The position numbers were made by a program, and so were the translations under genes. A DNA stretch of 64,000 bases from the NCBI GenBank assembly GCA_963575745.1, contig CAUYUJ010000137.1:558001-622000 (forward strand), written 5' to 3'. How positions within the stretch are numbered: position 1 is the first letter of the stretch; every line of letters starts with the position of its first letter. Source of the DNA: Prorocentrum cordatum. Lineage: Eukaryota. Positions 2-16,063 of the stretch are shown piece by piece. The notes beneath the pieces were generated by a model. It saw only the letters and a program-made list of their open reading frames with translations. It was not told the origin of the DNA and searched no databases.

Positions 2-1301
2 GTCAGCATCCGTGGCTGCGAAGCCACCCTCGCCAAGACGCGATACCGCATCACTGGCATTGCGGCACGCCACGCCACGCTGACCCAGCTGGCTAAGACT
101 CTCACGGGCCCGTCCGTCAAATGGGACTGTGAGGTCTACCGCACCGCCTGGGACCCAGCCACTTCGGCTCAGTTTGCCTTAGTGCGCGCCCATCGTCCCC
201 CACCCACATATACGGTACAGGTCGCAGGGTGCCCCATCCCGTGGAGCATCACCGAGGCCCCGTTGGCTGAGGTGGTGCCGAAGAGGGACAACGTTACCAT
301 TGTCACCCCTACCACTATCACAGAGCCTGTGACGCCGCAGCCCGTGGTGGCGGCTTCAGCCCCGCCACGGGCACACTCCTAACCAAAGCGGCCCAGAGCC
401 CTTACCTCCACGACCTCATGACTGCCACGCCCAAAGGCAAGGGCGTCGCACCGCTCCCGATCCCCAAGGAGGAGCCTCTAGCCAAGCGCCACCGATCCTC
501 CAGAGGGAAACGCGACGCCACGCCGCACGCAAGATCACACGGCGCCCCAGGCCGCAGCTCCTCTGCACCCCCGCACGGCACGGATGGAGCTGCCGAGCAG
601 ACGGCCGTCCAAGGACCAGGTGTCATGACCCGCAACTTGGCACGGTGGCGGCTGAAGGCGGGGGCCACACGGAAGGGGACGCTGCCACAGCCGCCGAGGT
701 ACCAGGCGACGCTGACGACGTCGAGATCCTCTCATCAGGTGATGAATTCAGCGTGGCATCTCGCGAACTGAACACCCTCGGCGAACGCTTCGCAACGGCC
801 CCTAAACTGTCAGACGCCGCCACGACCCGCATCCAACACATGGAACAACAGCACGAGCTGCTTGCCAACACGGTGGATAACATGCAGGTTCAGCTTGCGG
901 GCGTTCTCTCATCCCAGGCCACACTCACGGAGCACGTTTCAGGTTTGGAACGAGGGCTTGCCACCGTCGTCACTCAGCAACAGACGGCAACTACCGAAGC
1001 TGCTGCACTGCGTGGTGACATCCAGGCCCTCCTCGGGCACCTCACGGGGGGCACCATCCACCTGCCACAGGTGGCCACCCTCGAAACAAAAAAAGGAGGA
1101 ATACAGAAAAAAAAAAATAAAAAAAAAAAAAAAAAAAAAAAAAAGATAGAGAGAAAAAAAAAAAAAAAAAGAAGAAAACAAAAAGCATATAAAAAAAAAA
1201 AAAAAAGAAAAAAAAAAAAATAACAACAAATAATAAAAATAACATAAAAAGAAACAAAAAAAAAAAAATAAAAAAAAAAAACAAGAAAATACCAAAAAAA
1301 A

Positions 1302-1334
<33 letters not shown>

Positions 1335-1509
1335 CCCAAAACAAAAACAAACCACAGTAAACAAAGCAGCAATCAGATGCCGAATACCCGTGGCTGTCCT
1401 GCGGTGGAATAGGGAACCAGACACTTCTGCCAGGTCACCCCAGGGACGGGGCCCCCCAGGGGCTGACAAAGGCAAAGACAAGGGTCGGGTCACTCAGGAA
1501 CCCTATTGA
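2..1509 (+). pseudogene. ORF1/gag-like nucleic-acid-binding protein (RRM-like + coiled coil + degraded CCHC), frameshifted and partial
   Basis: Frame 2 from base 2 reads TRYRITGIAARHATLTQLAKTL...KWDCEVYR...LVRAHRPPP (RRM-like pattern). ORF 645-1085 has a heptad-rich coiled coil (IQHMEQQHELLANTVDNMQVQLAGVLSSQATL). 1391-1430 reads W-LSCGGIG-N-QT/HFC. Ends KGKDKGRVTQEPY-stop at 1509. Confidence 0.5.
1086..1372. repeat. A-rich low-complexity tract interrupting ORF1 (possible low-quality sequence)
   Basis: About 290 nt of mostly A inside GC-rich coding-like DNA. Confidence 0.85.
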
Positions 1510-1770
1510 AGGTGCCTCAGAGAGCCTGCCTCAGCCCTCCGAGGAAGCGCCTTCAGAGGCATCTCTTCTCTCTTCGCGTCGTATCTCTTTCTTGTCATAT
1601 CATGTCAGTTTTGGCAGCAGCACGAGCAAGCTATCTGGTGTAGGGACACCTGTCATCTTGCTGTGGGTGTGTTTGTTTCTATGTACATGAGCATGCAGGG
1701 GTATCTGAGGATGCGTGCTGACATGCAGCTTTTGGCTCATCGCTCGCGCCGCCCGCCAGGCCTCGCCATC

Positions 1771-4700
1771 ATGTGGCGCCTTGCCTGCAGCCTGGCCCTC
1801 CCCTCGCTAGCTGGAGCACACCCGTCTTCAGGCGGTGCGCCCCAGCATGGAGGTGAGGTTCTCCTGCGACACGCTGAACGTGGGACCCTTTTCTACCTCT
1901 ACGATGACAGCATCTACAAGTACGATCATTGCACCATTTTGGACCCGATCGTGAACGGCACCGTTGCCGCGGGTCCGTGCGGCATAGGCCAGGCACACAG
2001 TGGCGGCTTCAGCCCCGCTGTTGTGCCCCGCTATTGCCCTACGGGTCTCACCACTCCCCTGTGCGATAGGGGCGAACCCGAGGAGGACCCTGCTTTCTGG
2101 CACCTGATGATGATCCGCGCCCGGCTCATACCGTGTGCTGCGGCGTGGGCACCAGGTGAGGACAACCAGGACATGTTCTGGGCATGGCTCGAAGACTGCG
2201 TCCCGTACATCCTGGCGACGCTTCATCTGCCACAGCACGATCACCCCTTCCAGGAGGATTCTGAGGACACAACCGACGCCCTGCGTCAGCGCACCGCGGT
2301 CGACATGTGCGAGGACATCTGGCACAGAGCGGGCCCCGACAGGCAGCGCATCAACCGCAACCTCACTCGTATCCAGAGCAGCCGCGAGTACGCCACCCGC
2401 TACTTTGGCCTCCTTCTTGAATACCAGGGCGCTCGTGCCACGCTCGTCGGCCCTGAGGCTTTCACGGCACCTTTGCCGCCATACCTCTCACGGGCCCATG
2501 CTCTGCTGCCAAGAGGCCTCCCTCCACCCGACCAAGACGCCATGGCGTACCTCGCCGACGTGATTCTGCACCAACCGCCAGACATGCTTCCGCTCGTCGA
2601 GGCGGAGCTCGCCGCGGCGCCGATGGACGGCACCGATCAGGCCGCAGATGATCCCGTATCATGGCTGCTACAGCACATCGCGGCCAGCGATATCGGCAAC
2701 ATATCCATGGACTCGTTCCACGCGTCGGACGATAGCCAGGACGGCATTGATACCCAGGATCGAGACGGCACGACACCACCAGGCGACTCGGCCCAGCGTG
2801 ACCGCGACAGTGAACCCTACTTTGGGCACACCTCGTTGCACAGCAGTCCGCCCCACAACTCAGCTCAGGCCGACCCCGGCGCACAGCTCAACGACGCTGA
2901 AGGCGTCACTGCCGCTGACGCGACAAGCCATTCCACTGCGTCGCCAGCTCATGCCAGCCCGTGCAGTGGCGGCTTCAGCCCCGCTGCACCACTGGCTAGA
3001 CCTGGACATCCCCAGACCGCAGGTGGCAGCACCACGCCCTTCACCTCCGTACACCGTGACAACGTGACTGACTCCAACCCCAGTGCCATTGACCACTGGC
3101 AGGCCGACATCGACAACGACCCCATCGATGATGAGTACCCAGATGCCAGCGGTTCCCACGAGCCCCAGCACAGCGCAGCGGCATCACGACATTGTGGCTG
3201 CCTCATCTGCCTTTTTGTGGCCACGTACGCCATCGCGATAGCAATGCCGTACAAGGACCAGATCGATGGGTACTTGCCGACACCGAGCCGAGACCCCAGC
3301 TACCGACAACGACGACGACGCAAAGCGACGGCACCAGGCCCATCGGTGTCCACCACATCCCGACGCAAAACGACATACAATGTCACGTCCACATGGTGGG
3401 CCACTCTCAAATGGACCAGCGTCAAACTCAGAGATAGCGTCTCGGGCGGAGCCACTGCAGTCGGGGTCGGCCTCGGGGGTGTCCTGAAATGGGCCAGCGG
3501 CAAGCTAGGGGCTATTGCCACGGGTGGAGTCGTGTGTGGTCTTCAACTCGTCGGTGCCAAACTTCTTGCCCAGGGAGCTGTCGGACACGTAGGAGCCCGC
3601 ATCTGTGCGCGGGCCCTGGACTCATCCACAGCCCAGTGGTGCCTCCGCTGTTGCCAACCGAGCAGGAGGCCGCGCGATGAGGCCACATACAAAATGCCGT
3701 GCACGCTTGCCGACGAACACGACGACCAACACGTGCACTCACTCCGACATCCGCTGCTGCAGGAACACTACACCGCAGCAGTTGCCGCTGCAGTCGCCGA
3801 TGTCACCACCGCCACCACCGCCGCCATCGTCGAAGTCACTGCCGCCGTATCGCGAGCCTCGTCTGTCACACCAAGATCGACCAGCCCGTCCCCGCGAGAC
3901 GGCTCCAAAAGCGGCGCGGCATTCGGTAACCTACCGACTAACGAGGATGCCACAGCACACGGCAGCGACACCGAGGCAAGGGAAACACGTGAGTGCACCC
4001 ACGATAGCCCGTGGTCCATCTTCCGACATGCTGATGCTCGTGGCTCCTCTCCCGACGCGGACACCCAACCACCGCGACGGCGAGCACGCTATGCATCACC
4101 CAACAGGCCCCAGGCGCCTTCAGGCCCTGGTATGCCTTACACAGCCCTCAAGCCACCGACACGCAACCTACGCAACACTATCCAGCGCGACCCAGCGGTC
4201 CCCGTGCCGCCGAAGAGCATACTTAACGCCCTGTATCAAAACGGCTTTGCGCTTGGTAACAGTGGCGTGTCTACAGAGGACATCAAAGACGCTCTGCGAC
4301 TCCACGACCATCCTCGATTTACTCATGATCCCACACTCCAAGCGCTGGGGCCGTGGACGGACATCATGCAGAGGCCACCGAACCGCCTCACTTGGGTGCT
4401 GGAAGACTCGGGCGGGAACTCAGGCGAGACAATCTTCCCATACCTCACGTGGGACCTCCGCCAACCCACCACCGACGCGCCCACTGTCTTCTGGCATGGG
4501 ACCCGCGGCGACCTTGCGGCCCGTCTTGCTGCCAGTGGGGGGCACCTCTTGCCAGGTCCCCGCCGTGAAGCGAAGGGCCGAACTGGCACCAACGTTGGCC
4601 GCACGTACGCGAGCGTGCACCCTTCGCTGGCCGCGTGGTACGCAATGCCGCCCCACCCGCCCTACAGTCTTGAAGACGACACCCTCGCGTGGGGACCCAT

Positions 4701-4881
4701 CGCACTCTGGATGGGCGAGGCCACCCAACCACCGCGCGGGGAAAACAGGCACAACTACGTGAAAGGGGAGGCCCACGGAGCGCGCCTCATTTACCCTCGG
4801 GTCCTGAGCCTCCTCATCCGCATGGACTGGTGTGCCCCCACAGAAGCTGCTTCCAGGTGCCGTGCCCTTCCACACGCCTAG
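1771..4881 (+). CDS. Element cargo ORF: signal-peptide-like N-terminus, hydrophobic/Gly-rich segments, C-terminal PARP/ADP-ribosyltransferase-like domain
   Basis: Open frame 1663-4881. ATG 1771 gives MWRLACSLALPSLAGA. Hydrophobic CLICLFVATYAIAIAM and GGATAVGVGLGGV segments. C-terminal VFWHGT (4486-4503)...GRTYAS (Y 4606)...LAAWYA (Y 4639). Confidence 0.6.
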   Translation: MWRLACSLALPSLAGAHPSSGGAPQHGGEVLLRHAERGTLFYLYDDSIYKYDHCTILDPIVNGTVAAGPCGIGQAHSGGFSPAVVPRYCPTGLTTPLCDRGEPEEDPAFWHLMMIRARLIPCAAAWAPGEDNQDMFWAWLEDCVPYILATLHLPQHDHPFQEDSEDTTDALRQRTAVDMCEDIWHRAGPDRQRINRNLTRIQSSREYATRYFGLLLEYQGARATLVGPEAFTAPLPPYLSRAHALLPRGLPPPDQDAMAYLADVILHQPPDMLPLVEAELAAAPMDGTDQAADDPVSWLLQHIAASDIGNISMDSFHASDDSQDGIDTQDRDGTTPPGDSAQRDRDSEPYFGHTSLHSSPPHNSAQADPGAQLNDAEGVTAADATSHSTASPAHASPCSGGFSPAAPLARPGHPQTAGGSTTPFTSVHRDNVTDSNPSAIDHWQADIDNDPIDDEYPDASGSHEPQHSAAASRHCGCLICLFVATYAIAIAMPYKDQIDGYLPTPSRDPSYRQRRRRKATAPGPSVSTTSRRKTTYNVTSTWWATLKWTSVKLRDSVSGGATAVGVGLGGVLKWASGKLGAIATGGVVCGLQLVGAKLLAQGAVGHVGARICARALDSSTAQWCLRCCQPSRRPRDEATYKMPCTLADEHDDQHVHSLRHPLLQEHYTAAVAAAVADVTTATTAAIVEVTAAVSRASSVTPRSTSPSPRDGSKSGAAFGNLPTNEDATAHGSDTEARETRECTHDSPWSIFRHADARGSSPDADTQPPRRRARYASPNRPQAPSGPGMPYTALKPPTRNLRNTIQRDPAVPVPPKSILNALYQNGFALGNSGVSTEDIKDALRLHDHPRFTHDPTLQALGPWTDIMQRPPNRLTWVLEDSGGNSGETIFPYLTWDLRQPTTDAPTVFWHGTRGDLAARLAASGGHLLPGPRREAKGRTGTNVGRTYASVHPSLAAWYAMPPHPPYSLEDDTLAWGPIALWMGEATQPPRGENRHNYVKGEAHGARLIYPRVLSLLIRMDWCAPTEAASRCRALPHA

Positions 4882-4884
4882 GGC

Positions 4885-5925
4885 ATGGGCGACTGCGCGC
4901 ACGCCCTCCACATCGCTGGCTACGATCATCCAGATCTCCGTGAGGCGGCTGAAGCTCACGACCAGGAAGCTAGCACCAGGCGCAGACCAGCCATCGCGGC
5001 AGCATGGCCACCGCCGCAGGCACTATACTCGCCAGAGGCAGCGCAAATATGGGCCAAACAGCACTACGACACGGAAGCAGCCACCAGGGATGACCCTAAC
5101 CAGCCCCGCCCACGCGTCTCGCTTCACATGCTCCAGCTGGACCCGAAACCACTCATCGACCTGGTGTACACTGGCTTGCAAGCTGTCCCCGTGCGGGGGC
5201 ACCCTGACGCACGCGGATCGCGCCCCAGCGGCTCCAGCCCTGGGGCCGCGTCGGGCCCACCACGCACGTACAAGTCAGGCACAGCCCTGGCGCACAGTCC
5301 AGACCGCTCATCGACGTCATCTGGAGCCGACGAACGCCGTACGCCTTCCCTCATCAGCGCGGCCGCCGCCCTCGCCCGAGGCCGTGCCCGCCCACGACGA
5401 TCTGCCTCTCGCTCGTCACGGCAGAGTGGCGAGAACTCCACCTCAGACAACAATGGCATCGAGACGTGGGAGCACATTGTGACGGAAGAGGAGCCGACTG
5501 CCTACCACGTCCTCGCCTACCACGTCCGTGATGTGCGGACCCGTGTCAATGCCCCTGGCATCGAGGTCTGGCTTGACCCTGGTGATCACCACGATGGTGC
5601 CTACTTACCGTGGGGGACGACAGTCATGGGCCACCGCGTTATCGACCCTGCGGTGGCGGGGCGGGACGGCTGGGTCATCCTCCACCACGACCACGGCGAC
5701 ACCACTACTAAGCTCTGGCACCGACCCAAGTCCACGTCAAAGCGGACGACACCTGGCGCACCGTCATGGTACCAGCGGACATGGGGCCCCAGTGGATCAG
5801 GTGCCATGCCGAGGACGCTCGCCACCCCGCCGAGGTTGTCCGCACTACAGGCCAATCCTGGTTTGCTGACGTCTGGCCCTTGTGGGATCGCCCGCGACCC
5901 CACCCAGACGACCAGGCACAAATGA
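4885..5925 (+). CDS. Element cargo ORF (346 aa), possible SH3-like segment; probably shifts into frame 3 near 5712
   Basis: Same frame as the upstream ORF, separated only by TAG-GGC. Segment VRTRVNAPGIEVWLDPG...LPWGTTV...DGWVIL loosely resembles SH3b patterns. Confidence 0.4.
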   Translation: MGDCAHALHIAGYDHPDLREAAEAHDQEASTRRRPAIAAAWPPPQALYSPEAAQIWAKQHYDTEAATRDDPNQPRPRVSLHMLQLDPKPLIDLVYTGLQAVPVRGHPDARGSRPSGSSPGAASGPPRTYKSGTALAHSPDRSSTSSGADERRTPSLISAAAALARGRARPRRSASRSSRQSGENSTSDNNGIETWEHIVTEEEPTAYHVLAYHVRDVRTRVNAPGIEVWLDPGDHHDGAYLPWGTTVMGHRVIDPAVAGRDGWVILHHDHGDTTTKLWHRPKSTSKRTTPGAPSWYQRTWGPSGSGAMPRTLATPPRLSALQANPGLLTSGPCGIARDPTQTTRHK

Positions 5926-6278
5926 GCATGCGCTCCCGCCTTTACCAGGACGCTGGTCTTGCCTACAGTGTCGATTCCAATGCTGTCAGTACTGTGCGGC
6001 TCGCCGCAACACGCAGCTCGGCACCTCGGGCCAACCAACGTGCCCAGACTGCGCCCGCAGCGGACTGCGTACACTTATGGACTGGTCCACGGACTACTCG
6101 TGCAACAGTTGACGTGTGCATACAGCACCAACTACAGGGACTCCGACACATGCTGCCTGTCCAGCAGGTGCCCCCATCCCCCCAGTCCACACAGCCTGCT
6201 CGACGTCCGTGCCACAGGGATGCCGCCGCACATCCTTGCCCGCCAATTCGGCAACGCGCCAGCCCTCCACGACCTTAA
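5712..6278 (+). CDS. Frame-3 segment with possible ubiquitin-like (beta-grasp) domain
   Basis: Open from 5712: TQVHVKADDTWRTVMVPADMGPQWIR...SRLYQDAGL...STVRL, pattern comparable to MQIFVK...TLSDYNI...STLHL. Confidence 0.3.
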   Translation, partial: ALAPTQVHVKADDTWRTVMVPADMGPQWIRCHAEDARHPAEVVRTTGQSWFADVWPLWDRPRPHPDDQAQMSMRSRLYQDAGLAYSVDSNAVSTVRLAATRSSAPRANQRAQTAPAADCVHLWTGPRTTRATVDVCIQHQLQGLRHMLPVQQVPPSPQSTQPARRPCHRDAAAHPCPPIRQRASPPRP

Positions 6279-9200
6279 GGAACCCCCCCGAGCGCCTTCA
6301 GGCCCCGGGGGGGAACCACCACAACCAGGGCAAGCAGGCTACCAGGGTCAATGGTACTTCCCACCGCAGCCGCGGCGCGTCCCCAGGCAGGGACTGCCTG
6401 ACGGCACAAGGCGGCCACCTGGATTCACAGGAACGGGGATGCCCGAAGAACCTTCCCCCGACCAACCGCTTTGGAGGGAAGGCTACGTGCTCTTCAGCCC
6501 CCACCAGGCCCTCAAGGAGGAATTCACCTTCAACAAGACGGTCCGCCGACCCTACTCCCTAGCCATCACCAACATGTACAGGGACCGTGTCACGGTCAGG
6601 ACCGTCTGCGAGTCGATCGCCGAGCGCATCCACATTACCCGCACCCGCTGGCGAGATGTGGTACTGTACTGGGACGCCGAGGGTGGCCCTGGGCCTCAAG
6701 CCCTCGACTACGACATGCGACTCTGCGACGCGATGGTGAGCCGTGCCACGACCGAAGCCGAGCTAAACCACGACCGCAGCAACCGTGGTAGCTTCTGCCT
6801 CTATGGACCAGCGCACCAGCGAGCTGTCAACATCACGGCGATCTCCGAGCCGCAGAACATCGACTACATGGAGCATGCGCGGCGATACTCACCCGTAGGG
6901 GGGACCTACCCTGACCACGCCTTCGAGCACGTCTATCGGGGCTGGCAGCGGCCCGACGTGCCCACCATCCTCCCCGACACCCGTCCCCTCTCGAGAGCCG
7001 ACTGGCAGCGTCACCAACAGCACCAGCAGCGCAGCCAGCAGCGGGACCAACGTGACGCAGGACAGCAGGGCACACCACGCTACCGCTCCCCTGCGCGAGT
7101 CCCGACAGGCGGTAACACGGCCTACGACGGGGTTGCCGCCAACTACCGTGGCCCCATAGGTGCCAGGCCCGCGGCTGCTGGAGCAGCCGCCTCCAGCTAC
7201 GGCCACGCCCCCCACGCCAGGGTACACCCAGCGGTCCTCGGCTACCCGCGTGCACCCGTGCAGGCCCTAAGGGCCACCTCGCCAGTGCCAGGGTCCACGC
7301 GCGCCTGGGGCCTTTACTCAGGCCGACATGATGGCACCTCCAGAAACCAGCCCGCAGTGATAACCCCTGCGGCTTCAGCCCAGGGGGCTGCAACAAACCG
7401 TGGCAGGGCTGGGCGCCCCGAAGGACGGCGTGATGCGAACGTGCGCGCTTGGCAACCGCGCCAGCACACGCCCCCGCCAAACGTGGCTGCAGCACTGCGC
7501 CCTGCCCAGGCAAAACCTGCCCCACCTGAGCGGGAGAGGCAGCCGCTTACCCCGCTCGTCCTCACGCACATCCAGGCGCATCACAGCGCCCTCCCGCGGC
7601 ACAGCGAGGGAAGCGCCCACCACGTCAGCCCCCGCCCCGACGCTGTCGACCCCGACCAGGCCACAGCCACGGCGGAGGGCGGCACAAGCGCCTCTCGCCA
7701 GCCCAGCCCATCACCCTGCGCGGCGCCGATCCGATCCCCGAGCCGGGCGGATTCCGAGCGCGCTAATGCCCAGGCGACCTCGCCACGCGACCGCCACACG
7801 GGCGGGCGCGTCCCGCGCAGCAGGACCTGCAGCCGCCACAGTTCACGCAAGGCCCCAGGGAGCTCCACGAGCTCGCCGCCTCGCGAGACTCAGGCTGATG
7901 GCCAAGTCCCCGAAGTGGTGCCACGCTTCGGAGCCAGCGTCATCGAACCTGGCCAGGCGGTTGACCTCGAGCCGACGCCGTCCACGGACCACGAGCCGCC
8001 GCTGACCACCCGCGTGATCGTCCCCATCGACGAGGCGCCAACCTTCGACCCGTTCAAGAACAAGTACCGTGTCAAGAACCTGGTGGCGGGTTTCGGCGGT
8101 GGCTCACCGCTCTCACCTCAGAGTCGGGGCGGAGCCCCCGCCACCTCAGCTGCTGCCGCGGCAGCGGCGGCCCCGCGGGGAATCAGCCCTGTCCGCAACG
8201 TGGGCCTCACGGCAGCGGGCATGGACGAGGCCCAGCGCCAGGCCTCAGACCGTGCTGCTGGAGCTGTTCCACCAGATGCTGCTCATCAAGATACTGACGG
8301 GGCGGGCGCGCCACCGCAGGAGGGACCAGCGGTGTCGCGTGCGCAGTATATGCGCGTGCGTTGTGCCGCCGCCGCGCCTAGCCGCCGCCGCTGGTTCGCT
8401 TTTGATTTTGTGTTCGGCAGGACGGATCGAGGAGTCGCCTCCCTCTCCCTCTGCTGCCGTCTCACCTCTCCTCCCCTCGTCCCCTACGGTACTGGAGTGA
8501 GGAGGATTTTTCGTGACATTTTTACTGACGTTTATGAACCCCCCCTGGCGCGGTGCCGACCGTGTCCCGCCTATACTTCTGGCCTGACGGCGGCTTCAGC
8601 CCCGGTCAAGCTAATCCATAGGAACGCCATGAGCTCCTACTGTGGCCAAGCCTCCTACCTGGGCGAGGGTCAGGCTGACCTTCACCGTGCGGGGCGTGCA
8701 AACCCCAGTTCCACCGATGGAGACGGGCCAGGTCGCTCCTTACACCTCGTCAGCCTTAACATCACCAGTCTCTCAGCGAATTGGCCAACCATCACCGCCC
8801 TTGGTGTCGACCACAACGCCGCAGTCATAGCACTGCAGGAGACCCGACATGCCAAGCCGACTAGGCAAGCCTTCGCTACCAGCGCCGCCAATCCACTCCA
8901 CGGAGGATACCACGCCAGTCTTGGACCTGACCTTGATCTGGCGCGAGCCCAGCGCAGAGCTGCCCACGGCGGCACAGACCACACCGTCGTGGGCAACACT
9001 GGCGCCTCGGGAGGGGTCGCCATCCTCTCTAAGGATGCCATTGTCGACTCCACTGTCGACGACAATGCGCACTGTATCGTCGCCCTCAAGGCCAAGAAAA
9101 GATGGCACGAGGTCTTTCTCCCGCTCTGCACTCAACACCGCCGCAGGCGGCGACGAAACAACCACGGGCCCGAGGGGATCTACATAGCGAGCCTCTACGG

Positions 9201-9648
9201 GATTGCTGGAGGAGACAGCACAGCTCTTTTTCGGCTCGCTGACTGCGCCGCCGCTAGGGTCGGCTCAGCCCCCTACTTCATCTGCATGGACGCCAAAACG
9301 AACATCGACGACAATCCACACCTTCTGCACATGTTGCAGCACGGATGGTTCAACGTTGCTGAGGGCACACCAGACCACACCATGCACGCCACCCCAATAC
9401 AAGGAAAAAGCATCTCACACCCTGAGACTAGTAAGGGAAAAAAGCAAGAACCCTACCATGATACAACCCCGACATACAAATATACACATACGGCAATATC
9501 CCTGACTGGGACCGCGTCACCAAGTGCCCCCGCACTTCGCGCATCGATTATATCATTGCCAACCAAGCGGCGCGATCCCTTGTCACCGACTTCTGCTACC
9601 TTCGCGACTTGCCAGCGAAGTCTCATGTTGGCCTGCAGGTCACGCTAG
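5959..9648 (+). CDS. 1229-aa ORF: ubiquitin-like segment, long disordered linker, then N-terminal part of APE endonuclease
   Basis: TVRTVCESIAERIHI...VVLYW...ALDYDMRLCDAMV (about 6590-6740). APE motifs LVSLNITSL, IALQETR, GGVAILSK, IYIASLYG, FICMDAK in 8740-9300. Confidence 0.65.
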   Translation: MPTVSIPMLSVLCGSPQHAARHLGPTNVPRLRPQRTAYTYGLVHGLLVQQLTCAYSTNYRDSDTCCLSSRCPHPPSPHSLLDVRATGMPPHILARQFGNAPALHDLKEPPRAPSGPGGEPPQPGQAGYQGQWYFPPQPRRVPRQGLPDGTRRPPGFTGTGMPEEPSPDQPLWREGYVLFSPHQALKEEFTFNKTVRRPYSLAITNMYRDRVTVRTVCESIAERIHITRTRWRDVVLYWDAEGGPGPQALDYDMRLCDAMVSRATTEAELNHDRSNRGSFCLYGPAHQRAVNITAISEPQNIDYMEHARRYSPVGGTYPDHAFEHVYRGWQRPDVPTILPDTRPLSRADWQRHQQHQQRSQQRDQRDAGQQGTPRYRSPARVPTGGNTAYDGVAANYRGPIGARPAAAGAAASSYGHAPHARVHPAVLGYPRAPVQALRATSPVPGSTRAWGLYSGRHDGTSRNQPAVITPAASAQGAATNRGRAGRPEGRRDANVRAWQPRQHTPPPNVAAALRPAQAKPAPPERERQPLTPLVLTHIQAHHSALPRHSEGSAHHVSPRPDAVDPDQATATAEGGTSASRQPSPSPCAAPIRSPSRADSERANAQATSPRDRHTGGRVPRSRTCSRHSSRKAPGSSTSSPPRETQADGQVPEVVPRFGASVIEPGQAVDLEPTPSTDHEPPLTTRVIVPIDEAPTFDPFKNKYRVKNLVAGFGGGSPLSPQSRGGAPATSAAAAAAAAPRGISPVRNVGLTAAGMDEAQRQASDRAAGAVPPDAAHQDTDGAGAPPQEGPAVSRAQYMRVRCAAAAPSRRRWFAFDFVFGRTDRGVASLSLCCRLTSPPLVPYGTGVRRIFRDIFTDVYEPPLARCRPCPAYTSGLTAASAPVKLIHRNAMSSYCGQASYLGEGQADLHRAGRANPSSTDGDGPGRSLHLVSLNITSLSANWPTITALGVDHNAAVIALQETRHAKPTRQAFATSAANPLHGGYHASLGPDLDLARAQRRAAHGGTDHTVVGNTGASGGVAILSKDAIVDSTVDDNAHCIVALKAKKRWHEVFLPLCTQHRRRRRRNNHGPEGIYIASLYGIAGGDSTALFRLADCAAARVGSAPYFICMDAKTNIDDNPHLLHMLQHGWFNVAEGTPDHTMHATPIQGKSISHPETSKGKKQEPYHDTTPTYKYTHTAISLTGTASPSAPALRASIISLPTKRRDPLSPTSATFATCQRSLMLACRSR

Positions 9649-10062
9649 ACCTCAGTCGCCTCGACATACGGCCCGACGTCTTCTTGCCCCCACGCCCTAC
9701 CCTCCCGACGATGGAGCTCATGAGGGTCACGAGCTGCAGGCACTAGGGACCCTCATCGCTGGGCAATATCAGGACCGCATGGAACAGGCCGACACACGCG
9801 ACGACGTGGAGCGCATGTTCGCCCTGGCTAACGAGGCCAGTCATGAGTACCATCTCACCCGTCTGCGCGACCTGCCACCTCCACCGCCCGACCACCCCAA
9901 AAAGAAGCCCCCCACCATGCACGGGCTCACGCCCACGTTCGAAGATCGACCAGTTGTCCCCCGCGCCTTCCCCACCTACGGAGCTTCCACGATACACATG
10001 AACCGACTGCGCAAGCTCCATCGGCAACTCTGTGAGCTCCGTTTCATCGGACAGCACATCAT

Positions 10063-12843
10063 TTGGATTGCCGTGCTATCCCGCCGTACCTCGCGCAGCG
10101 CATCGACTGCACGTGGACCGCGGCCCGCCTCTTATGCCACAAGCTGCGCCCCACGGTTCTCCTAGACTTCCCCGAGGCCTGGACCCCCGACGAGCCAGTG
10201 CCTCACGGAGAGCACCTCGACGTTTTGATCCAACACCTCGACTTGGAGCTGGCGCGACGTGCGAACCGTGCCAAAGCTGAACGCATCAAGATATGGGCTG
10301 AGGGCGTCCGCGAGCCAAGCGGGCGAAAGGCGGCCATATACGCACGGGCTGCTGACAGCTCGCCCACGGCGTATCTCCGCACGCCTACCACACCTGACGA
10401 TACGCAACTCCACTGCGACACAAACGCCTTTAAACCTGACGAAGCTTGCACGGACGACAGCGACGCTGACACCGAAGCTGGCGGCTTCAGCCCCAGCGAC
10501 GGTAGTTCGCCCGACACGGACAGCGACGAAGACCACACTCGTGAACCACCACCTGCGCAAGTCCCCGACATCCTCCCTTCCAACGCCATTGTTGCTAACA
10601 CCAAGGACATGCTGAAGCTCATGGTCGACACCTGGGAGCCCATCTTGGGCAGGTACCGTGCACGTGCGGGACATGACGCCGAAGCCATGCCGACGTGGGC
10701 CGACTTCTACGACGAGTACCGACAGGAGCTGCCTACGTCATCACCAGCTACCCCTTTCCACCTCACCGACGACCAACTCATCCACTTCATTCGCACCCGT
10801 TCACCGCGCCGCGCGGGGGGACTGGACGGCTGGACTACAAAGGAGGCTAAGGAGTTACCCGACGACATTCTTCGCCTCTTCGCCAGCGTCCTACGCGCTA
10901 TGCAACGCACTGGCACCATCCCAGAACCCCTCCTCCACGTGCCAAACCCGTGCCTCCGAAAAGGCCGAGGCGAACTCCCAACGGACCAACGACTTCTCTC
11001 GGTGCTTTCCGTTTGGATGTATGCGTGGGAAGCGCCAGCATACCGCAGCCTCACGGACTGGCGGAAAGGATGGACCCACGCCACGAGTTTTGGCGCTGTC
11101 CCCAAAGCTACCATTGGGGACGTCAGCACCTCTCTTGCCCTGCGCATCGAGCACGCCAGGGCCTTACTCCTTCCCTTAGCTGGAGCTGCCCTGGACCGAC
11201 AGAAGTGTTTCGACTACCTCATCACGGACATCTGCCTTAACCTTGCGCGTCACGCGGGGTGCCCCCAAGACATCGTTACTGTCCGCAGAAACTTCTACAG
11301 TCGCCACAAACGCTACATCCGCATGAACGGTGCGTACTCTAAGGAACTGGCCAGGACAAACGGTCACCTCCAGGGAAGCTCTTGGTCCCTGGACGACATT
11401 AAGCTGCTCATGTTTGTGTGGACCAAGAGACAGCATCGATACGTTCCGCGATCACTCAGCACTACCTTTGTTGACGACAGCAACTCCACTACTCACACCG
11501 CGCCTGAGTTGCAGAAATCTCTAGATGAAACCGCCAAGTTTGATCGATTTTCAGGTCAACGCATTCACCCTGGCAAAGTGGCGGGGTGGGCGCTCACCGA
11601 CGAGCTTCACACCGCCGTTACCCAGCTCACTCTGGCGGAACGGCCCATACGCGTGGTCGACTCCTTTAAGCTCGTCGGGAGTTACATCAACGCCGAGGCA
11701 GCGCCGGCTCCAGCCGCGCTTAACCTCACGGCCACCGCTGACGCCCGAGTTCGCAGGGCGACTAGTCGCCTGCCGCGCATTGGCAAGCTCCCATCACCGA
11801 TGCTTATTAAGGCGCGGCACGCCCGTTCCCTTGCTGCCAGCGTCTGTACCACGGGCAACGACATTCAAGCCCCATCAGGCCCCGTCAAAACTGCCTACAA
11901 CCATGCCCTTAAGGCGGCTATCCGCCCCAAGGGAAACAGGTGGGTCGAGTTTTGGACCCTCATGGCCGTGTGCGTCCCAGGACACGCCCTGGAGATTGAC
12001 GCCATTATGCAGCGTGAAGTCTTCCTGTGTCTGCGGCGACAGGTTAACCGCGACGCTACTCTCAGCGGTCTCGTCAGGGATCTCCAACACCATGTCCAGA
12101 CCCTTTTCGGGGGAGGACCTGTAGGACGACTTGTCCAGACGCTTCAGCAGCTCCGTTGGACCTGGCCCACATTTGGCATCATGTACGACGACTGGGGCTG
12201 TCAGATCAGTTGGCTGAACCTACCCCAAAACTCCTTCCTTCACATGCTGCGAGCCTCACAACGCAGAGCCTTTCTGAGAAAAATCAAGCCACGGCGTCAT
12301 GACCTTGGACACCTGGCCTCTGTCAGACAGGGCCTCGACCTCTTCGCCAGCACGTGGCTCGCCCGAACGAAAGGAGCAGCCAAATGCAACGCATGCAGCT
12401 GGCGCTCCTCCTTAACTACCTGTCGGGCGGGGACCACACCCAACAGCGACGATCCCGATCAAACACGTCCGCTGACCCCAGCCCCATCTGCCGATACTGC
12501 GACGAGGAAGAGGAAACACAGGAGCACACTGTTCGCGACTGCAAGTGCTGGGCCCGAGAAAGAGTCCCTCTTACCACCCTCATCAGTGACGAGCAGTGGG
12601 CCCGTCTTCCGCCGCACACAAGACACTGCGGGCTCTTCGATGAAGACCCAGCCCTCCTCGACCTGCAGGCCGACCTCGCGAGGGTCCCGCTACCTCAGCC
12701 CATACCGCGGCCCCCACCTGAGGGAGATCCTGCGGCTTCAGCCCAGGACTCCTACACCACCTACCTTGACCACGACACTGGTTGGACATGGGTCTACGCC
12801 GCCACGGACGGTGCATGCACCAACCAAGCCATCCCATTGCTAG
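10063..12843 (+). CDS. Non-LTR reverse transcriptase domain
   Basis: AGGLDGW, QRLLSVLS, LDRQKCFDYL, GHLQGSSWS, TFVDDS (FVDD 11467-11478), IHPGKV, FKLVGS: LINE RT motifs in canonical order. Confidence 0.92.
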   Translation: MDCRAIPPYLAQRIDCTWTAARLLCHKLRPTVLLDFPEAWTPDEPVPHGEHLDVLIQHLDLELARRANRAKAERIKIWAEGVREPSGRKAAIYARAADSSPTAYLRTPTTPDDTQLHCDTNAFKPDEACTDDSDADTEAGGFSPSDGSSPDTDSDEDHTREPPPAQVPDILPSNAIVANTKDMLKLMVDTWEPILGRYRARAGHDAEAMPTWADFYDEYRQELPTSSPATPFHLTDDQLIHFIRTRSPRRAGGLDGWTTKEAKELPDDILRLFASVLRAMQRTGTIPEPLLHVPNPCLRKGRGELPTDQRLLSVLSVWMYAWEAPAYRSLTDWRKGWTHATSFGAVPKATIGDVSTSLALRIEHARALLLPLAGAALDRQKCFDYLITDICLNLARHAGCPQDIVTVRRNFYSRHKRYIRMNGAYSKELARTNGHLQGSSWSLDDIKLLMFVWTKRQHRYVPRSLSTTFVDDSNSTTHTAPELQKSLDETAKFDRFSGQRIHPGKVAGWALTDELHTAVTQLTLAERPIRVVDSFKLVGSYINAEAAPAPAALNLTATADARVRRATSRLPRIGKLPSPMLIKARHARSLAASVCTTGNDIQAPSGPVKTAYNHALKAAIRPKGNRWVEFWTLMAVCVPGHALEIDAIMQREVFLCLRRQVNRDATLSGLVRDLQHHVQTLFGGGPVGRLVQTLQQLRWTWPTFGIMYDDWGCQISWLNLPQNSFLHMLRASQRRAFLRKIKPRRHDLGHLASVRQGLDLFASTWLARTKGAAKCNACSWRSSLTTCRAGTTPNSDDPDQTRPLTPAPSADTATRKRKHRSTLFATASAGPEKESLLPPSSVTSSGPVFRRTQDTAGSSMKTQPSSTCRPTSRGSRYLSPYRGPHLREILRLQPRTPTPPTLTTTLVGHGSTPPRTVHAPTKPSHC

Positions 12844-14147
12844 CACGAGTGGGCTACGGCGTCTACTACGGCATCGACCACCGCATGAACTACTGTGCAC
12901 GCGTTCACGGCATTACGCAGAACGCACAGCTTGCGGAGACCCTCGCCATTGTCCACCTCACGGCATGTGCTGAACGGCCCGTGCACGTTTTCGTGGACAA
13001 CCAGGCGGTGGTTGATGGTTTCCAAAGGATCATCGACGGACACTCACCACCGCAGGGCACGCACGAGGAGCTCTGGGAAAAGATCCACCGATGCGTCATG
13101 GCCAAGCCCAACATGTTCCGCGTCGAGAAAGTCGCTAGCCACCAGGGCGACATGGGCATCGACCTCGGTCTCATCGGGCCCATCGCGGAGGAGTTCAATC
13201 GTCAGGCTGACGCCCTCGCCACAACGGCGGCACGTACTCATAACCTTCCAGACGACATTGTCGAAGCTGCCAAATCAAGACATCGCCAAGCGACCGTGCT
13301 TCATGGAGTCGCTGTCGCCATCTACGAGCGTAGACACCGTACACTCCCCCTCCCACACCGCAGGGCTGGGTTCACAGCTGCGGAACAAAACAAAATGGAA
13401 CCAAATCCCCTGCTGTCTGACCAGGCACCACCCGCGGCTGGACCAGACATCCCACAGAACCCGGACGAGCTCTGGGCCGAGGCCCAACGGGCGATATTCG
13501 ACGCACAGGAGGACGACCCGTTCGGCTTTGGTGGGGGCCTGGACTTCCTGGGCGACGGGCCAGCCAGCGCCAACCCTGCCCCGTCGGGTACCCGCACGGC
13601 GCCCCCGACTCCGCCATCGAGAGCGGCAGCGCACCCACATGACAACGCAGCTCATTTTCAAGACGCTGACGAACAGGAGGATGACCTGTTCAGCTTCGGT
13701 GGGGGATCGGACGCTTTGGACGACGGACCAGCCAGCGAAAACCCCGCCCCGTCGGGAAACCTCTCGATCCCTACTGCGACTCCGTCCCCGAGAGCGGTAT
13801 CGCCCACATACGATGATATCGGCCACCTCCAAGACGCCGACCATGACCTGGGTGACCCCCGCGGACTGAGTGGCATGGAGGACGCACCGCCGATACCACA
13901 CGCTGCCGACCATGCCGCCCTACCGAGACGCCAACCTTCTACACGACCGACCTCAGAGCCCTTGCACGGCATCATGACTGGTCCCACCGCGCAAACCACT
14001 CCGCCCCCCCACCGCCGGCAGCCCGCGGGGGCGGCTTCAGCCCCCCGCAGGGCACTAAACCAGACAGGCCCTCGTGCCCCGTCCACGCTTCCATCGTTGC
14101 TGAGCGAGAGGAAGCGGCTCTCCCGACCTCTCGGGGCGTGGCCCTAG
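12354..14147 (+). CDS. CCHC zinc knuckle plus RNase H domain of pol
   Basis: CRYC-x8-H-x4-C (12489-12542). RNase H catalytic set ATDGAC (D 12807), LAETLAI (E 12936), FVDNQAV (D 12996), KVASHQ, NRQADALA (D 13209). Confidence 0.9.
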   Translation: MARPNERSSQMQRMQLALLLNYLSGGDHTQQRRSRSNTSADPSPICRYCDEEEETQEHTVRDCKCWARERVPLTTLISDEQWARLPPHTRHCGLFDEDPALLDLQADLARVPLPQPIPRPPPEGDPAASAQDSYTTYLDHDTGWTWVYAATDGACTNQAIPLLARVGYGVYYGIDHRMNYCARVHGITQNAQLAETLAIVHLTACAERPVHVFVDNQAVVDGFQRIIDGHSPPQGTHEELWEKIHRCVMAKPNMFRVEKVASHQGDMGIDLGLIGPIAEEFNRQADALATTAARTHNLPDDIVEAAKSRHRQATVLHGVAVAIYERRHRTLPLPHRRAGFTAAEQNKMEPNPLLSDQAPPAAGPDIPQNPDELWAEAQRAIFDAQEDDPFGFGGGLDFLGDGPASANPAPSGTRTAPPTPPSRAAAHPHDNAAHFQDADEQEDDLFSFGGGSDALDDGPASENPAPSGNLSIPTATPSPRAVSPTYDDIGHLQDADHDLGDPRGLSGMEDAPPIPHAADHAALPRRQPSTRPTSEPLHGIMTGPTAQTTPPPHRRQPAGAASAPRRALNQTGPRAPSTLPSLLSERKRLSRPLGAWP

Positions 14148-14921
14148 CGGCTCCAGCCCTGGGGTCGCGTCGGCCCCTCCAGCCACCCTTCAAGGGTGAC
14201 GGACGTCAGCGTACAGGGTCCCGCACTACGCTAGTCCACCATTTGGACAGGCGTACCGAGGACCTCGCCTCTGTCTCGAGGCCCACGGCTGCTGGCACTG
14301 AGCAGCCACCCCTCACCGACCGCGAAACCGAGCTGTCACAGGCTATGGCTGCCCTCCAGCAGAGGTGCTTAGCTCTCGCCGCGGACCTCGCCGCCGCCCA
14401 AGCTCGTCAAGGCCCTCTACTCCAGCGCCTCCACAGCGCTGGGCGAGCCTTTGCCGAGCTGCTCACGGCCTCGCCCGATGGTGCCGTGCCGTCACTCAAC
14501 ATCCAAGCTATGTTGTCATCGCTCCGCGGCGCTCCACCTGGTGCCCCGCGCTAATCTCCTCCTTTCTGCCTGCCCGTGTGTACGCGTGGCTCCGCGTCCA
14601 CGGTGTCAGGGCGTGGGGGCGGGGGGTGCCCCGTCACTGCGCGCCGCATAGCGGCCAAGCGCCCAACTGGCGGTCTGCCAAGCCGCCTAGCCACGTGTCA
14701 GCACGTCGCCTTTCTTGTTGGGGCCTTTTTTCCTCACGCGGTCTGACAGGTGAGATCATCATCGTCTGTCCGCCGTCTGTAGCGTCTGTCGCACTGCGCC
14801 GGGGGAGGGGGTTTTTTGTTGCCCGCCCTCGTATCTAAAGGCTGCACCGCCGCAAATAGTGCATGCGAGTTGTCGCACCGCAGTGCGCCTCGCGGACGGA
14901 CCCTGGTCCGCCTACTTGTCC

Positions 14922-14923: not shown

Positions 14924-14975
<52 letters not shown>

Positions 14976-14988
14976 TTCTCTCTCTATA

Positions 14989-15041
<53 letters not shown>

Positions 15042-15358
15042 GCTCTCTCGCTCTCTCTTGCTCTCTCTCGCTCTCTGTCGCTCTCTCTCGCTCTCTCTCT
15101 CTCTCTCTCGCTCTCACTCGCTCCCTCTCGCTCTCTCTCGCTCTCCCTCGCTCTCTCCCGCTCTCTCTCTCTCTCTCTGCTCTCTCTCTCTCTCTCTCGC
15201 TCTCACTCGCTCCCTCTCGTCTCTCCTCGCTCTCCCTCGCTATCTCCCGCTCTCTCTCTCTCTCTCTCTCATCGCTCCTCTCAGGAGAGTGTCTCTCACT
15301 TCTCCTCACTCATTCGCTTCTCTCGCCGCTCTCTCTCTCTCTCTCTCTCTTTCTCTCA

Positions 15359-15391
<33 letters not shown>

Positions 15392-15691: not shown

Positions 15692-15724
<33 letters not shown>

Positions 15725-15744
15725 TCTCTTCTCTTCGCTTCTCT

Positions 15745-15780
<36 letters not shown>

Positions 15781-16028: not shown

Positions 16029-16063
<35 letters not shown>
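14924..16063. repeat. (TC)n microsatellite, about 1.1 kb, imperfect
   Basis: Direct reading. Confidence 0.97.

What the first reader, a model, noticed from the sequence alone, without database searches (positions are those of the whole stretch)
340..14172. Quasi-periodic (~1.1 kb) conserved bulged hairpin along a giant retrotransposon RNA
Seen: consensus [arm]-C-G-N-C-T(T/C)CA-G-N'-C-[arm'] on the + strand, with bulged C at 351, 1823, 2004, 2970, 4115, 5229, 6293, 7370, 8591, 10482, 11705, 12733, 14032, 14148, plus a variant at 9261 (TAGGG-TC-GGC-TCA-GCC-CCCTA). Lower arms differ completely yet pair: CCCGTGGTGG/CCGCCACGGG, CACC/GGTG, GTGCAGTGG/CCGCTGCAC, CCAGG/CCTGG, GCCCCAG/CTGGGGC, CCCCTG/CAGGGG, GCTGG/CCAGC, AGCGC/GCGCT, TCCTG/CAGGA. 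The middle apical pair covaries: G-C in most, C-G at 4115 and 6293, U-G at 1823. Gaps from 2004 onward are 966, 1145, 1114, 1064, 1077, 1221, (670, 1221), 1223, 1028, 1299 nt. Copies sit inside ORF1, cargo, APE, RT and RNase H coding regions in different frames (GGFSP, AASAP, APSGP, SGSSP, APAPA), so selection appears nucleotide-level. None were noticed by eye in the other 49 kb. Known analogues: bulge-plus-tetraloop protein-binding hairpins such as the MS2 operator and iron-responsive elements. Inference: regularly spaced sites for an element-encoded (RRM-like ORF1) or host protein that coats, packages, exports or protects a >15-kb intronless RNA, or aids elongation or RT processivity. I know of no such system described for LINEs.
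Basis: partly seen in the sequence, partly recalled or inferred. Interest (0 to 1): 0.93.

Follow-up and report, generated by a model that had tools for sequence, protein, structure and literature searches.

The report
Evenly spaced RNA hairpins in retrotransposon
A 13.6-kb jumping gene carries the same small bulged hairpin about once per 1.1 kb on its coding strand, written into protein linkers, which looks like a repeated docking site for a protein on its RNA and has no described counterpart in this class of elements.

Summary
All 14 canonical sites exist. Each folds as variable arm / bulged C / 3-bp stem / U(U/C)CA tetraloop. A covariance model scores them at 28.5-36.5 bits, against 17.3 bits or less for anything else in the 64 kb on either strand. 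Shuffles predict 0.007-0.07 such hairpins; 12 meet the strict rule. The spacing is more even than chance (P=0.003 with all 13 sites of the main element).

The motif sits in different codon phases, in linker-like stretches between the endonuclease, reverse transcriptase and RNase H parts. An 89%-identical copy from another record keeps hairpin 10482 through a compensatory U-A to C-G change. RT relatives at 58-76% protein identity lack the hairpin at the homologous places.

Site 351 belongs to a second, short element. That element has a further hairpin upstream, about 1.34 kb away.

The 9261 'variant' is not a member.

Best reading (0.4): repeated sequence- and structure-specific protein-binding sites on the sense RNA, used to build or recognise the retrotransposition particle. 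This function is inferred; no RNA or binding data could be obtained. I found no described equivalent for non-LTR elements.

The parts
340..372 (+). hairpin h351 (11-bp arms, one G.U). It lies in the second, short element B, 8 nt before a stop codon of B's frame.
   Evidence: (35.1 bits)
1816..1840 (+). hairpin h1823 (apical G-C, U.G, C-G; arms with one A.C mismatch)
   Evidence: (28.5 bits)
1997..2021 (+). hairpin h2004
   Evidence: 35.6 bits
2961..2989 (+). hairpin h2970 (arms shared with h2004)
   Evidence: 36.5 bits
4110..4130 (+). hairpin h4115 (apical GCC/GGC). Identical in the 97% copy L006.
   Evidence: (32.3 bits)
5222..5246 (+). hairpin h5229 (UCCA loop; shares arms and 3' flank with h14148)
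   Evidence: (35.2 bits)
6283..6313 (+). hairpin h6293 (apical GCC/GGC; one A.C mismatch in the arm)
   Evidence: 31.7 bits
7364..7386 (+). hairpin h7370
   Evidence: 34.5 bits
8588..8604 (+). hairpin h8591 (only 3 contiguous arm pairs; pair probability 0.62 in context), just upstream of the endonuclease match
   Evidence: (29.3 bits)
10477..10497 (+). hairpin h10482, in the acidic linker before the conserved RT block. The ortholog in L005 has a compensatory U-A to C-G change.
   Evidence: (31.7 bits)
11700..11720 (+). hairpin h11705 (UCCA loop), in a variable loop of the RT ORF. There is a 6-aa gap against P0001 here; L001 has the same length but no hairpin.
   Evidence: 29.4 bits
12728..12748 (+). 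hairpin h12733, between the RT block and RNase H. The window is 6 aa longer than L001 here.
   Evidence: 32.0 bits
14028..14046 (+). hairpin h14032. In this copy the 3' arm is one base shorter than in many other copies. About 80 nt around it align with h351.
   Evidence: table 4; 29.1 bits
14135..14171 (+). hairpin h14148 (13-bp arms with four G.U pairs, UCCA loop)
   Evidence: 33.0 bits
   Evidence: absent from the list (E<=10); arm pairing lost in L005
1341..14923 (+). main non-LTR retrotransposon. It has one long sense reading frame from ATG 1771, broken in this copy by an in-frame stop and several frame changes.
8806..9057 (+). endonuclease (Exo_endo_phos) match, weak (E 0.0011, below Pfam's cut-off)
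10582..12372 (+). reverse transcriptase block conserved with P0001 (46% identity; FVDD motif; Pfam RVT_1 only at E 0.024)
12801..13232 (+). RNase H domain (29.8 bits, cut-off 25.8)
14924..16063 (+). (TC)n tail of the main element
   Evidence: the same junction is seen in L009/L040
1..1340 (+). 3' part of the short element B (1-1079) and its A-rich tail (1080-1340). B's 5' part lies on L040 and carries a further hairpin (L040 709-733).

Best explanation
The hairpins are cis-acting elements of the sense RNA of this retrotransposon family. Each presents the same surface on top of an arbitrary lower stem: an unpaired C, a 3-bp G-N-C/G-N'-C stem, and a U(U/C)CA loop closed by C-G. Each acts as a high-affinity site for one sequence- and structure-specific RNA-binding protein. 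The protein is most simply a part of the element's own large polyprotein. About one site per 1.1 kb lets several protein units load along the 13.6-kb RNA, which marks it as the template for the retrotransposition particle. The short neighbouring element B carries the same hairpin at a similar density, so it could be recognised by the same factor in trans.

Shown: the motif, its pairing, its strand, its spacing, its independence of codon phase, and its restriction to this family.

Inferred: that the RNA is the folded species, that a protein is the ligand, and what the binding achieves.
For: - Eight positions are invariant (the bulged C, the loop, and the closing and basal pairs) over arms that vary yet pair. 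88.6% of cells pair, 8 of 10 pairs change on both sides, and 0 of 500 shuffles reach this. Mere stability would not fix the loop and bulge letters.
- All 14 sites in the window, the L005 and L006 orthologs and the L040 site are in sense orientation. The reverse complements score 11.8 bits or less.
- There are 8 G.U pairs against 2 A.C mismatches.
- In a 211-nt context, 12 of 14 sites have apical pair probability of 0.9 or more.
- The motif uses two codon phases in the main element and a third in B. Synonymous shuffles expect 0.07 hairpins.
- The spacing is even: P=0.003 with all 13 sites, and 9 of 12 gaps fall within 950-1310 nt. In B the two hairpins are about 1.34 kb apart.
- The ortholog of h10482 in an 89% copy differs from the window at exactly two positions of the 25, and these form one pair: U-A becomes C-G. 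h351 and h14032 differ by paired changes in their arms.
- The motif is shared by two otherwise unalignable elements. It is absent from the other 49 kb and from the bacterial part of a 6.5-Mb GC-rich MAG.
Against: - No RNA data of any kind exist, and no binding protein is identified. The N-terminal ~7 kb and B's ORF match no Pfam family and have no homologue in the protein search.
- RT relatives at 58-76% identity lack the hairpin: L001 at all three homologous places; L002 and L003 at the 10482 place. So the machinery can work without it, or it uses something else there.
- One 95% copy (L007) has a decayed hairpin, as expected for dead copies. The few copies I could read therefore cannot measure purifying selection.
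- The G.U excess is weak (8 against 2, one-sided binomial about 0.055), and 4 of the 8 are in one hairpin.
- Only one orthologous compensatory change was seen.
Confidence: 0.4

Rival explanations
1. The sites bind a host factor rather than an element protein. The hairpin would recruit a host RNA-binding protein that long intronless transcripts need, for example for nuclear export, stabilisation, modification or escape from silencing. One site per ~1.1 kb would keep the whole RNA covered.
For: The structural evidence is the same as for the best explanation. The motif is shared by two elements with otherwise unrelated sequence. It is absent from RT relatives recovered from other metagenome records, which fits a host-specific adaptor. 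No RNA-binding domain is recognisable in the element.
Against: No host sequence could be searched because no genome is held, so it is unknown whether host RNAs carry the motif. None occurs in the 49 kb of non-element sequence in the window. There is no binding evidence.
Confidence: 0.25
2. The motif is a selfish or neutral hairpin cassette. In this reading a ~20-40-nt cassette is copied to new places within the element, for example by template switching during reverse transcription, and is tolerated where the protein has linkers. It would have no function of its own.
For: Some hairpins are clearly copies of each other. 2004, 2970 and 351 share six arm pairs, and 5229 and 14148 share arms plus 18 nt of flank. 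At 12733 the window is 6 aa longer than L001. The flanks are enriched in small and polar residues (0.677 against 0.604, P=0.022). Mobile palindromes inside coding regions are known elsewhere (Rickettsia palindromic elements, yeast mitochondrial GC clusters; recalled).
Against: The even spacing (P=0.003) is not expected from random pasting. The arms have diverged widely while 8 core positions stay invariant. At 11705 the hairpin has the same length as the L001 sequence, so it arose by substitutions and not by insertion. There is a compensatory change in L005.
Confidence: 0.12
3. The hairpins act on translation. They would sit at domain boundaries and slow ribosomes so that the domains of a ~4,300-residue polyprotein fold in turn.
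For: The sites lie in linker-like stretches next to the endonuclease, RT and RNase H blocks. The spacing of about 350-400 codons is domain-sized.
Against: Pausing needs stability, not a fixed bulged C and a fixed loop. Several hairpins are weak, at -7 to -12 kcal/mol. h14148 and h14032 are only 116 nt apart, as are h1823 and h2004 at 181 nt. In B, one hairpin ends 8 nt before a stop codon.
Confidence: 0.08
4. The signal acts at the DNA or cDNA level, for example as hairpins in the first-strand cDNA that start second-strand synthesis at intervals, or as a DNA-binding motif such as a B-box-like site.
For: The element encodes its own RNase H. Long retroelements with several plus-strand primers are known (central polypurine tracts, caulimovirus gaps; recalled). 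Spacing at regular intervals would suit discontinuous synthesis.
Against: On the complementary strand the 8 G.U pairs become A.C mismatches; h14148 would lose 4 of its 13 arm pairs and h1823 its middle apical pair. The motif is not purine-rich. A duplex DNA site would not need covarying arms.
Confidence: 0.07

Closest known systems
Dispersed packaging signals of single-stranded RNA viruses (MS2, STNV, parechovirus, enterovirus-E): many stem-loops across the genome that share a loop motif and bind coat protein. I saw PMC6281560, PMC4751978, PMC5431903 and PMC7793301 only as the search listing with the starts of abstracts.
   Same: There are many copies of a small stem-loop with a shared apical motif on variable stems. 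They are spread through coding sequence on the sense RNA.
   Different: Here the core is nearly identical at every site rather than degenerate. The spacing is quasi-regular. The carrier is a non-LTR retrotransposon with no recognisable capsid or coat gene. No binding is shown.
Phage coat-protein operator hairpins (MS2, Qbeta, PP7). Their definitions are recalled, not from a call.
   Same: The architecture is the same: lower stem, a single unpaired base on the 5' strand, a short upper stem of 2-4 bp, and a small loop with fixed letters.
   Different: The unpaired base is C, not A. The loop is U(U/C)CA. There are 13 sites per RNA instead of one strong operator. The host is a eukaryote.
Iron-responsive element (definition recalled)
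   Same: An unpaired C on the 5' strand below a small apical hairpin, with variable lower stems and protein recognition of bulge plus loop.
   Different: The upper stem is 3 bp, not 5. The loop is a tetraloop, not the CAGUGN hexaloop. There is no Rfam hit. The sites are in coding sequence, not in UTRs.
3' stem-loop of 'stringent' LINEs, shared with their partner SINEs and recognised by the LINE reverse transcriptase (eel UnaL2 and similar; recalled)
   Same: A hairpin block of about 80 nt is shared between the autonomous element and a short neighbouring element that otherwise does not align.
   Different: The block is not at the 3' terminus. It is ~880 nt before the (TC)n tail in the main element and ~710 nt before the A-rich tail in B. 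It is also one of an array of 13 sites along the RNA.
Mobile palindromes inside coding regions (Rickettsia palindromic elements; yeast mitochondrial GC clusters and 'byps'; recalled)
   Same: Short hairpin-forming cassettes sit in frame in tolerant parts of proteins. Some sites here are copies of one another.
   Different: Here they occur on one strand only, only in the retrotransposons (0 in the other 49 kb), are evenly spaced, and have a fixed core over diverged arms.

Membership tests
Iron-responsive element | Unpaired C on the 5' strand, five base pairs below the loop (recalled definition) | tested here: not met
   An unpaired C is present, but the upper stem is 3 bp at all 14 sites
Iron-responsive element | Six-base apical loop CAGUGN; match to the Rfam IRE models | tested here: not met
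   The loop is UUCA (11 sites) or UCCA (3 sites). No Rfam family reaches gathering score in the 64 kb. At E<=1 in 1-15000 the only hit is an unrelated miRNA on the - strand.
Phage coat-protein operator hairpin (MS2 type) | Unpaired adenine on the 5' strand and an ANYA-type loop (recalled definition) | tested here: not met
   The unpaired base is C at 14 of 14 sites and the loop is U(U/C)CA. Only the architecture is alike.
Dispersed packaging signals | Multiple stem-loops along the genomic RNA that share an apical motif on variable stems | tested here: met
Dispersed packaging signals | Bound by the cognate coat protein during assembly of a capsid | not testable with these tools
   No capsid-like or RNA-binding family is found in the element.
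LINE 3' recognition stem-loop shared with a non-autonomous partner | The same stem-loop in the autonomous element and in a partner that otherwise differs | tested here: met
   332-412 aligns with 14012-14087, with paired arm changes. The rest of B does not align (blastn none; local alignment).
LINE 3' recognition stem-loop shared with a non-autonomous partner | Located at the 3' end, next to the tail repeat | tested here: not met
   h14032 lies ~880 nt before the (TC)n tail. h351 lies ~710 nt before the A-rich tail.
tRNA T-loop / box B mimic | Seven-base loop UUCRANN closed by a G-C pair (recalled definition) | tested here: not met
   The covarying partner of the middle stem base is the one predicted by the tetraloop fold (GC 11, CG 2, UG 1). 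In the T-loop register the closing pair would be C.C, and position 58 would be G, not A.
Histone 3' stem-loop | Six-bp stem with a four-base loop; Rfam model match | tested here: not met
   3-bp apical stem, then a bulge; no Rfam hit
Non-LTR (LINE) retrotransposon (the carrier element) | Reverse transcriptase | tested here: inconclusive
   Pfam RVT_1 only at E 0.024, below its cut-off. The FVDD motif and 46% identity over 599 aa to P0001 are seen; P0001 itself is unnamed.
Non-LTR (LINE) retrotransposon (the carrier element) | AP-type endonuclease upstream of RT, RNase H downstream, simple-repeat 3' tail, no LTRs | tested here: met
   Exo_endo_phos is weak (E 0.0011). RNase H passes its cut-off. 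The (TC)n tail is seen in the window and at the same junction in L009. No long direct repeats are found in the self-comparison. Target-site duplications were not examined.
Mobile palindromic insertions in coding regions | Copies scattered through the genome in either orientation | tested here: not met
   0 model hits above 17.3 bits outside the elements and none on the - strand in the window. The host genome itself could not be searched.

The most novel reading that the evidence does not exclude
The array would be a ruler-like assembly and recognition code for a non-LTR retrotransposon particle. One identical bulged hairpin per ~1.1 kb nucleates a fixed number of units of an element-encoded protein along a 13.6-kb RNA. 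A short non-autonomous partner carries the same code at the same density and is thereby mobilised. If so, this would be the first sequence-specific, multi-site RNA recognition system described for a LINE. It would also give a defined RNA-protein pair from an unexplored protein family.
Probability: 0.25. Interest if true: 0.9.

Novelty: new variant of a known kind. Interest (0 to 1): 0.8.

Why it matters
How LINE proteins choose their own RNA (cis preference), and how non-autonomous partners hijack them, is a long-standing question. Known LINE signals are a poly(A) tail or one 3' stem-loop.

An element that writes the same small hairpin into its coding sequence a dozen times, at even intervals and across codon phases, points to a different solution: multi-site, sequence-specific marking of a very long RNA.

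It gives a compact bait of 21-33 nt, with obvious bulge and loop mutants, to fish out the partner protein. It also gives a covariance model that can be run over the host genome to test spacing, strand bias and covariation.

It is also a clean example of an RNA structure overlaid on protein-coding sequence in several reading phases.

Tried and rejected
- Host genome: none is held, so family-wide counts, strand bias and host transcripts could not be examined.
- Sequencing runs: no RNA holder is listed. Only Logan contigs could be laid. That table shows 40 of 1606 differences, none of them in a hairpin, so it says nothing on conservation at the sites.
- 9261 'variant': rejected.
- Rfam: nothing at gathering score. 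At E<=1 the only hit is an unrelated miRNA model on the - strand.
- Tandem duplication of a ~1.1-kb coding module as the source of the period: the six inter-hairpin protein segments show no mutual similarity (best E 0.39). Ancient fold-level repeats are not excluded.
- A C-terminal relationship between B and the main element, seen by eye: BLASTP gives E=12. Dropped.
- 3' splice or trans-splice acceptor (invariant YCAG): considered. It does not explain the covarying stem or the bulged C, and it could not be tested without RNA.
- T-loop, box B and anticodon-loop mimicry, the IRE1-type loop, the NSUN6 CUCCA loop (only 3 of 14 sites have UCCA), and slippery-site frameshift stimulators: considered from recalled definitions. 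The registers do not fit.
- A different recurrent hairpin in relative L001: five stable local hairpins, with no shared motif and none at the homologous places.
- Protein searches: the RT query found one unnamed homologue. The cargo plus endonuclease ORF found none. Pfam finds nothing for the N-terminal ~7 kb or for B.
- Viral contigs: no relative.
- Earlier findings of this scan: nothing relevant.
- Literature searches found no paper describing regularly spaced hairpins in a retrotransposon RNA. The library lacks most subscription journals.
- Structure prediction of the cargo was not attempted, because no alignment depth is available.


Full report
**What is there**

At each of the 14 canonical coordinates the + strand reads [arm]-C-G-N-C-U-(U/C)-C-A-G-N'-C-[arm'].

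- The core pattern occurs 15 times on the + strand. Fourteen hits are within 340-14172. The fifteenth, at 61210, has no complementary arms and an A.A middle pair.
- The core occurs twice on the - strand.
- The exact 12-mer CGGCTTCAGCCC occurs 8 times, all on + and all inside the element.
- Each site has 3-13 contiguous arm pairs. The isolated hairpins fold at -7.3 to -28.8 kcal/mol.
- In a 211-nt context, 12 of 14 keep an apical pair probability of 0.9 or more. The exceptions are h8591 (0.62) and h14032 (0.15-0.27 in this copy).
- Beyond the core and the arms, no flanking position is conserved.

**Is it more than chance?**

- On the 25-column alignment of the 14 sites, 88.6% of cells pair. Shuffles give 62.4 +/- 2.8% (0 of 500 reach the observed value), and slid partners give 34-55%.
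- Eight of 10 pairs change on both sides. The middle apical pair is G-C at 11 sites, C-G at 2 and U-G at 1. These are paralogous sites, so this shows independent hairpins with one design, not phylogenetic covariation.
- A covariance model built from them scores the 14 sites at 28.5-36.5 bits. The next best hit in the whole 64 kb, on either strand, is 17.3 bits.
- One thousand dinucleotide shuffles of 1400-14900 give 0.545 cores and 0.007 armed hairpins (both strands together). One thousand synonymous-codon shuffles that keep the protein give 0.48 cores and 0.07 hairpins. Observed: 13 cores and 12 strict hairpins on +, and 0 on -.
- In a 6.5-Mb GC-rich bacterial MAG the core occurs 181 times, against 206 for the reversed control pattern. 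Of the 30 matches fetched, 0 have a paired middle base plus 3 or more arm pairs.

**Spacing**

The gaps in the main element are 181, 966, 1145, 1114, 1064, 1077, 1221, 1891, 1223, 1028, 1299 and 116 nt.

- With all 13 sites, the coefficient of variation (0.44) is matched by 0.3% of random placements.
- After dropping the two close partners (a post hoc choice), the CV is 0.21, and none of 200,000 simulations is as even.
- Nine of 12 gaps lie within 950-1310 nt.
- The long gap (8591 to 10482) spans the endonuclease region.

**The carrier**

The main element runs from about 1341 to 14923 and ends in a (TC)n tail (14924-16063).

- It matches Exo_endo_phos weakly (E 0.0011).
- It matches RNase H above Pfam's cut-off.
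- Its reverse transcriptase block has an FVDD motif, is 46% identical to one unnamed protein, and matches RVT_1 only at E 0.024.
- The ~7 kb upstream of the endonuclease matches no Pfam family and has no homologue in the protein search.

The separate ORFs of the window reflect an in-frame stop and several single-base length differences from other copies. Contigs from four runs show these differences near 5716, 5911, 6110, 9664, 10056, 12394 and 14040 (table 4). So the family's founder probably had one very long sense frame. This is an inference; I built no consensus.

The four runs lay 991 to 77,679 contig pieces on the stretch at 80% likeness or more. This fits a high-copy, diversified family in a eukaryote that I could not name.

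**Relation to coding**

- Within the frames that hold them, the bulged C is the second codon base at 8 sites and the third at 4. The same nucleotides are therefore read as GGFSP, AASAP, APSGP, SGSSP or APAPA.
- The flanks are modestly enriched in small and polar residues (0.677 against 0.604 at random positions, P=0.022).
- h8591 lies just upstream of the endonuclease match.
- h10482 lies in an acidic stretch about 100 nt before the conserved RT block.
- h11705 lies where P0001 has a 6-residue gap.
- h12733 lies between the RT block and RNase H, where the window is 6 residues longer than L001.
- h14032 lies after RNase H.

The hairpins are thus written into tolerant linkers, not into catalytic cores.

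**Relatives**

- Close copies keep the hairpins. A contig in a MAG (L005 = L008, 89% identical in DNA) holds the ortholog of h10482 at 36.0 bits. Within the 25 nt it differs from the window at two positions, and these are partners: U-A becomes C-G.
- A 97% copy (L006) has h4115 unchanged. A 95% copy (L007) has a decayed h10482, with one loop change and one C.C mismatch (13.3 bits). Such decay is expected in dead copies.
- Distant relatives lack them. The metagenome contigs L001-L003 (58-76% protein identity in RT) have no model hit above 10.7 bits and no hairpin at the homologous places. L001 lacks it at all three places; L002 and L003 lack it at the 10482 place. L004 does not cover a site.
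- At 11705, L001 has the same length and a related A-P-x-P peptide. There the hairpin arose by substitution. At 12733 the window is longer.

The array is therefore a recent, lineage-specific acquisition.

**A second element**

Site 351 is not part of the main element.

- Contig C329 of the same MAG (L009/L040) runs from the main element's 3' end through a short (CT)n into a different sequence with an ORF from ATG 374. Its last 108 nt match window 1-108 at 96%.
- So window 1-1079 plus the A-rich tail (1080-1340) is the 3' part of a short element, B, of roughly 2.8 kb.
- B has a further hairpin at L040 709-733. It scores 26.3 bits, was not in the training set, and sits in codon phase 0. It lies about 1.34 kb upstream of h351.
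- B and the main element do not align, except for about 80 nt around h351 and h14032, where the arms differ by paired changes.
- Whether B is a separate non-autonomous partner or the 5' part of one composite unit remains open.

**How some sites arose**

- h2004, h2970 and h351 share six arm pairs.
- h5229 and h14148 share arms and 18 nt of 3' flank.

Part of the array therefore spread by copying of whole cassettes. The inter-hairpin protein segments are not similar to each other (best E 0.39), so duplication of ~1.1-kb modules is not supported.

**Which strand and which molecule**

- All sites are in sense orientation.
- The reverse complements score 11.8 bits or less.
- The + strand has 8 G.U pairs and 2 A.C mismatches. 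This is suggestive only: the binomial probability is about 0.055, and four of the G.U pairs are in h14148.
- The sense strand exists single-stranded as RNA. In target-primed reverse transcription the single-stranded DNA intermediate is antisense (established knowledge of LINE replication).

I therefore read the hairpins as RNA structures.

**Mechanism**

Eight invariant positions sit on top of freely varying stems: the unpaired C, the loop letters, and the closing and basal pairs. This is the signature of a ligand that reads both shape and sequence, as coat proteins read phage operators or IRP reads the IRE (recalled).

Even spacing and multiplicity argue that coverage of the whole RNA is what is selected. 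The same hairpin at the same density in B argues for a factor shared by both RNAs.

My best explanation (0.4) is a set of binding sites for an element-encoded protein that assembles or recognises the retrotransposition particle. The rivals are:

- A host factor, for export, stability or modification (0.25).
- A neutral or selfish cassette (0.12).
- Translational pausing at domain boundaries (0.08).
- A cDNA- or DNA-level signal (0.07).

None of the functional steps is shown. No RNA run was available and no binding can be computed here.

**Comparison with known systems**

- The closest analogue in logic is the set of dispersed packaging signals of ssRNA viruses (listing and starts of abstracts only).
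- The closest analogues in architecture are the phage operator hairpins and the IRE.
- The defining features of the IRE, the MS2 operator, the histone stem-loop and the T-loop are not met.
- The shared 80-nt block resembles the LINE/SINE 3' stem-loop partnership, but it is not terminal.
- Three literature searches found no description of regularly spaced hairpins in a retrotransposon RNA. The library is incomplete.

**Verdict**

This is a real, statistically overwhelming and evenly spaced hairpin array, restricted to one family. Its function is untested. I score interest at 0.8 and file it as a new variant of a known kind.

Noticed in passing
window 1-1340; L040 1-1818: A second, short retroposed element (B, about 2.8 kb, A-rich tail) lies head-to-tail before the main element. 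In another record it directly follows the main element's (CT)n tail. It has its own ORF with no Pfam family and two copies of the hairpin. It is unclear whether it is a separate partner or part of a composite unit.
   Followed up: partly
window 9386-9483: A 98-nt AT-richer insert lies inside the endonuclease region of this copy. It is absent from the 89% copy L005 and is skipped in contigs of all four laid runs.
   Followed up: partly
window 13500-13809: A tandem duplication of a 168-nt coding block (75% identity) lies downstream of RNase H. It encodes a repeated acidic, Gly-rich peptide.
   Followed up: no
window 1771-1830: The long frame starts with a hydrophobic, signal-peptide-like N-terminus (read from the translation, context). 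Hairpin h1823 lies right behind it. No predictor was run.
   Followed up: no
window 16067-16906: A 152-nt satellite (5.5 copies, 98% matches) directly follows the (TC)n tail.
   Followed up: no
window 20920-21189, 21856-22044, 23075-23253, 59245-59419: A dispersed ~94-nt repeat unit with an internal short palindrome recurs in small tandem pairs on the + strand. It may be a miniature element.
   Followed up: no
window 36997-37407 and 47637-48037: The same 77/153-nt satellite occurs at two places 10 kb apart.
   Followed up: no
window 25771-26044, 29005-29491, 31286-31855: Three long (ATAC)n arrays lie within 6 kb. There are also long (CCT)n and (CACACA)n arrays at 33941-34670 and 38474-39367. 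The 49 kb outside the elements is mostly simple and satellite repeats.
   Followed up: no
L001 2140-2175: At the place homologous to h11705, the relative L001 has a 10-nt perfect palindrome (GGTCCGGACC) in an A-P-G-P-D coding stretch. It does not fit the model.
   Followed up: partly
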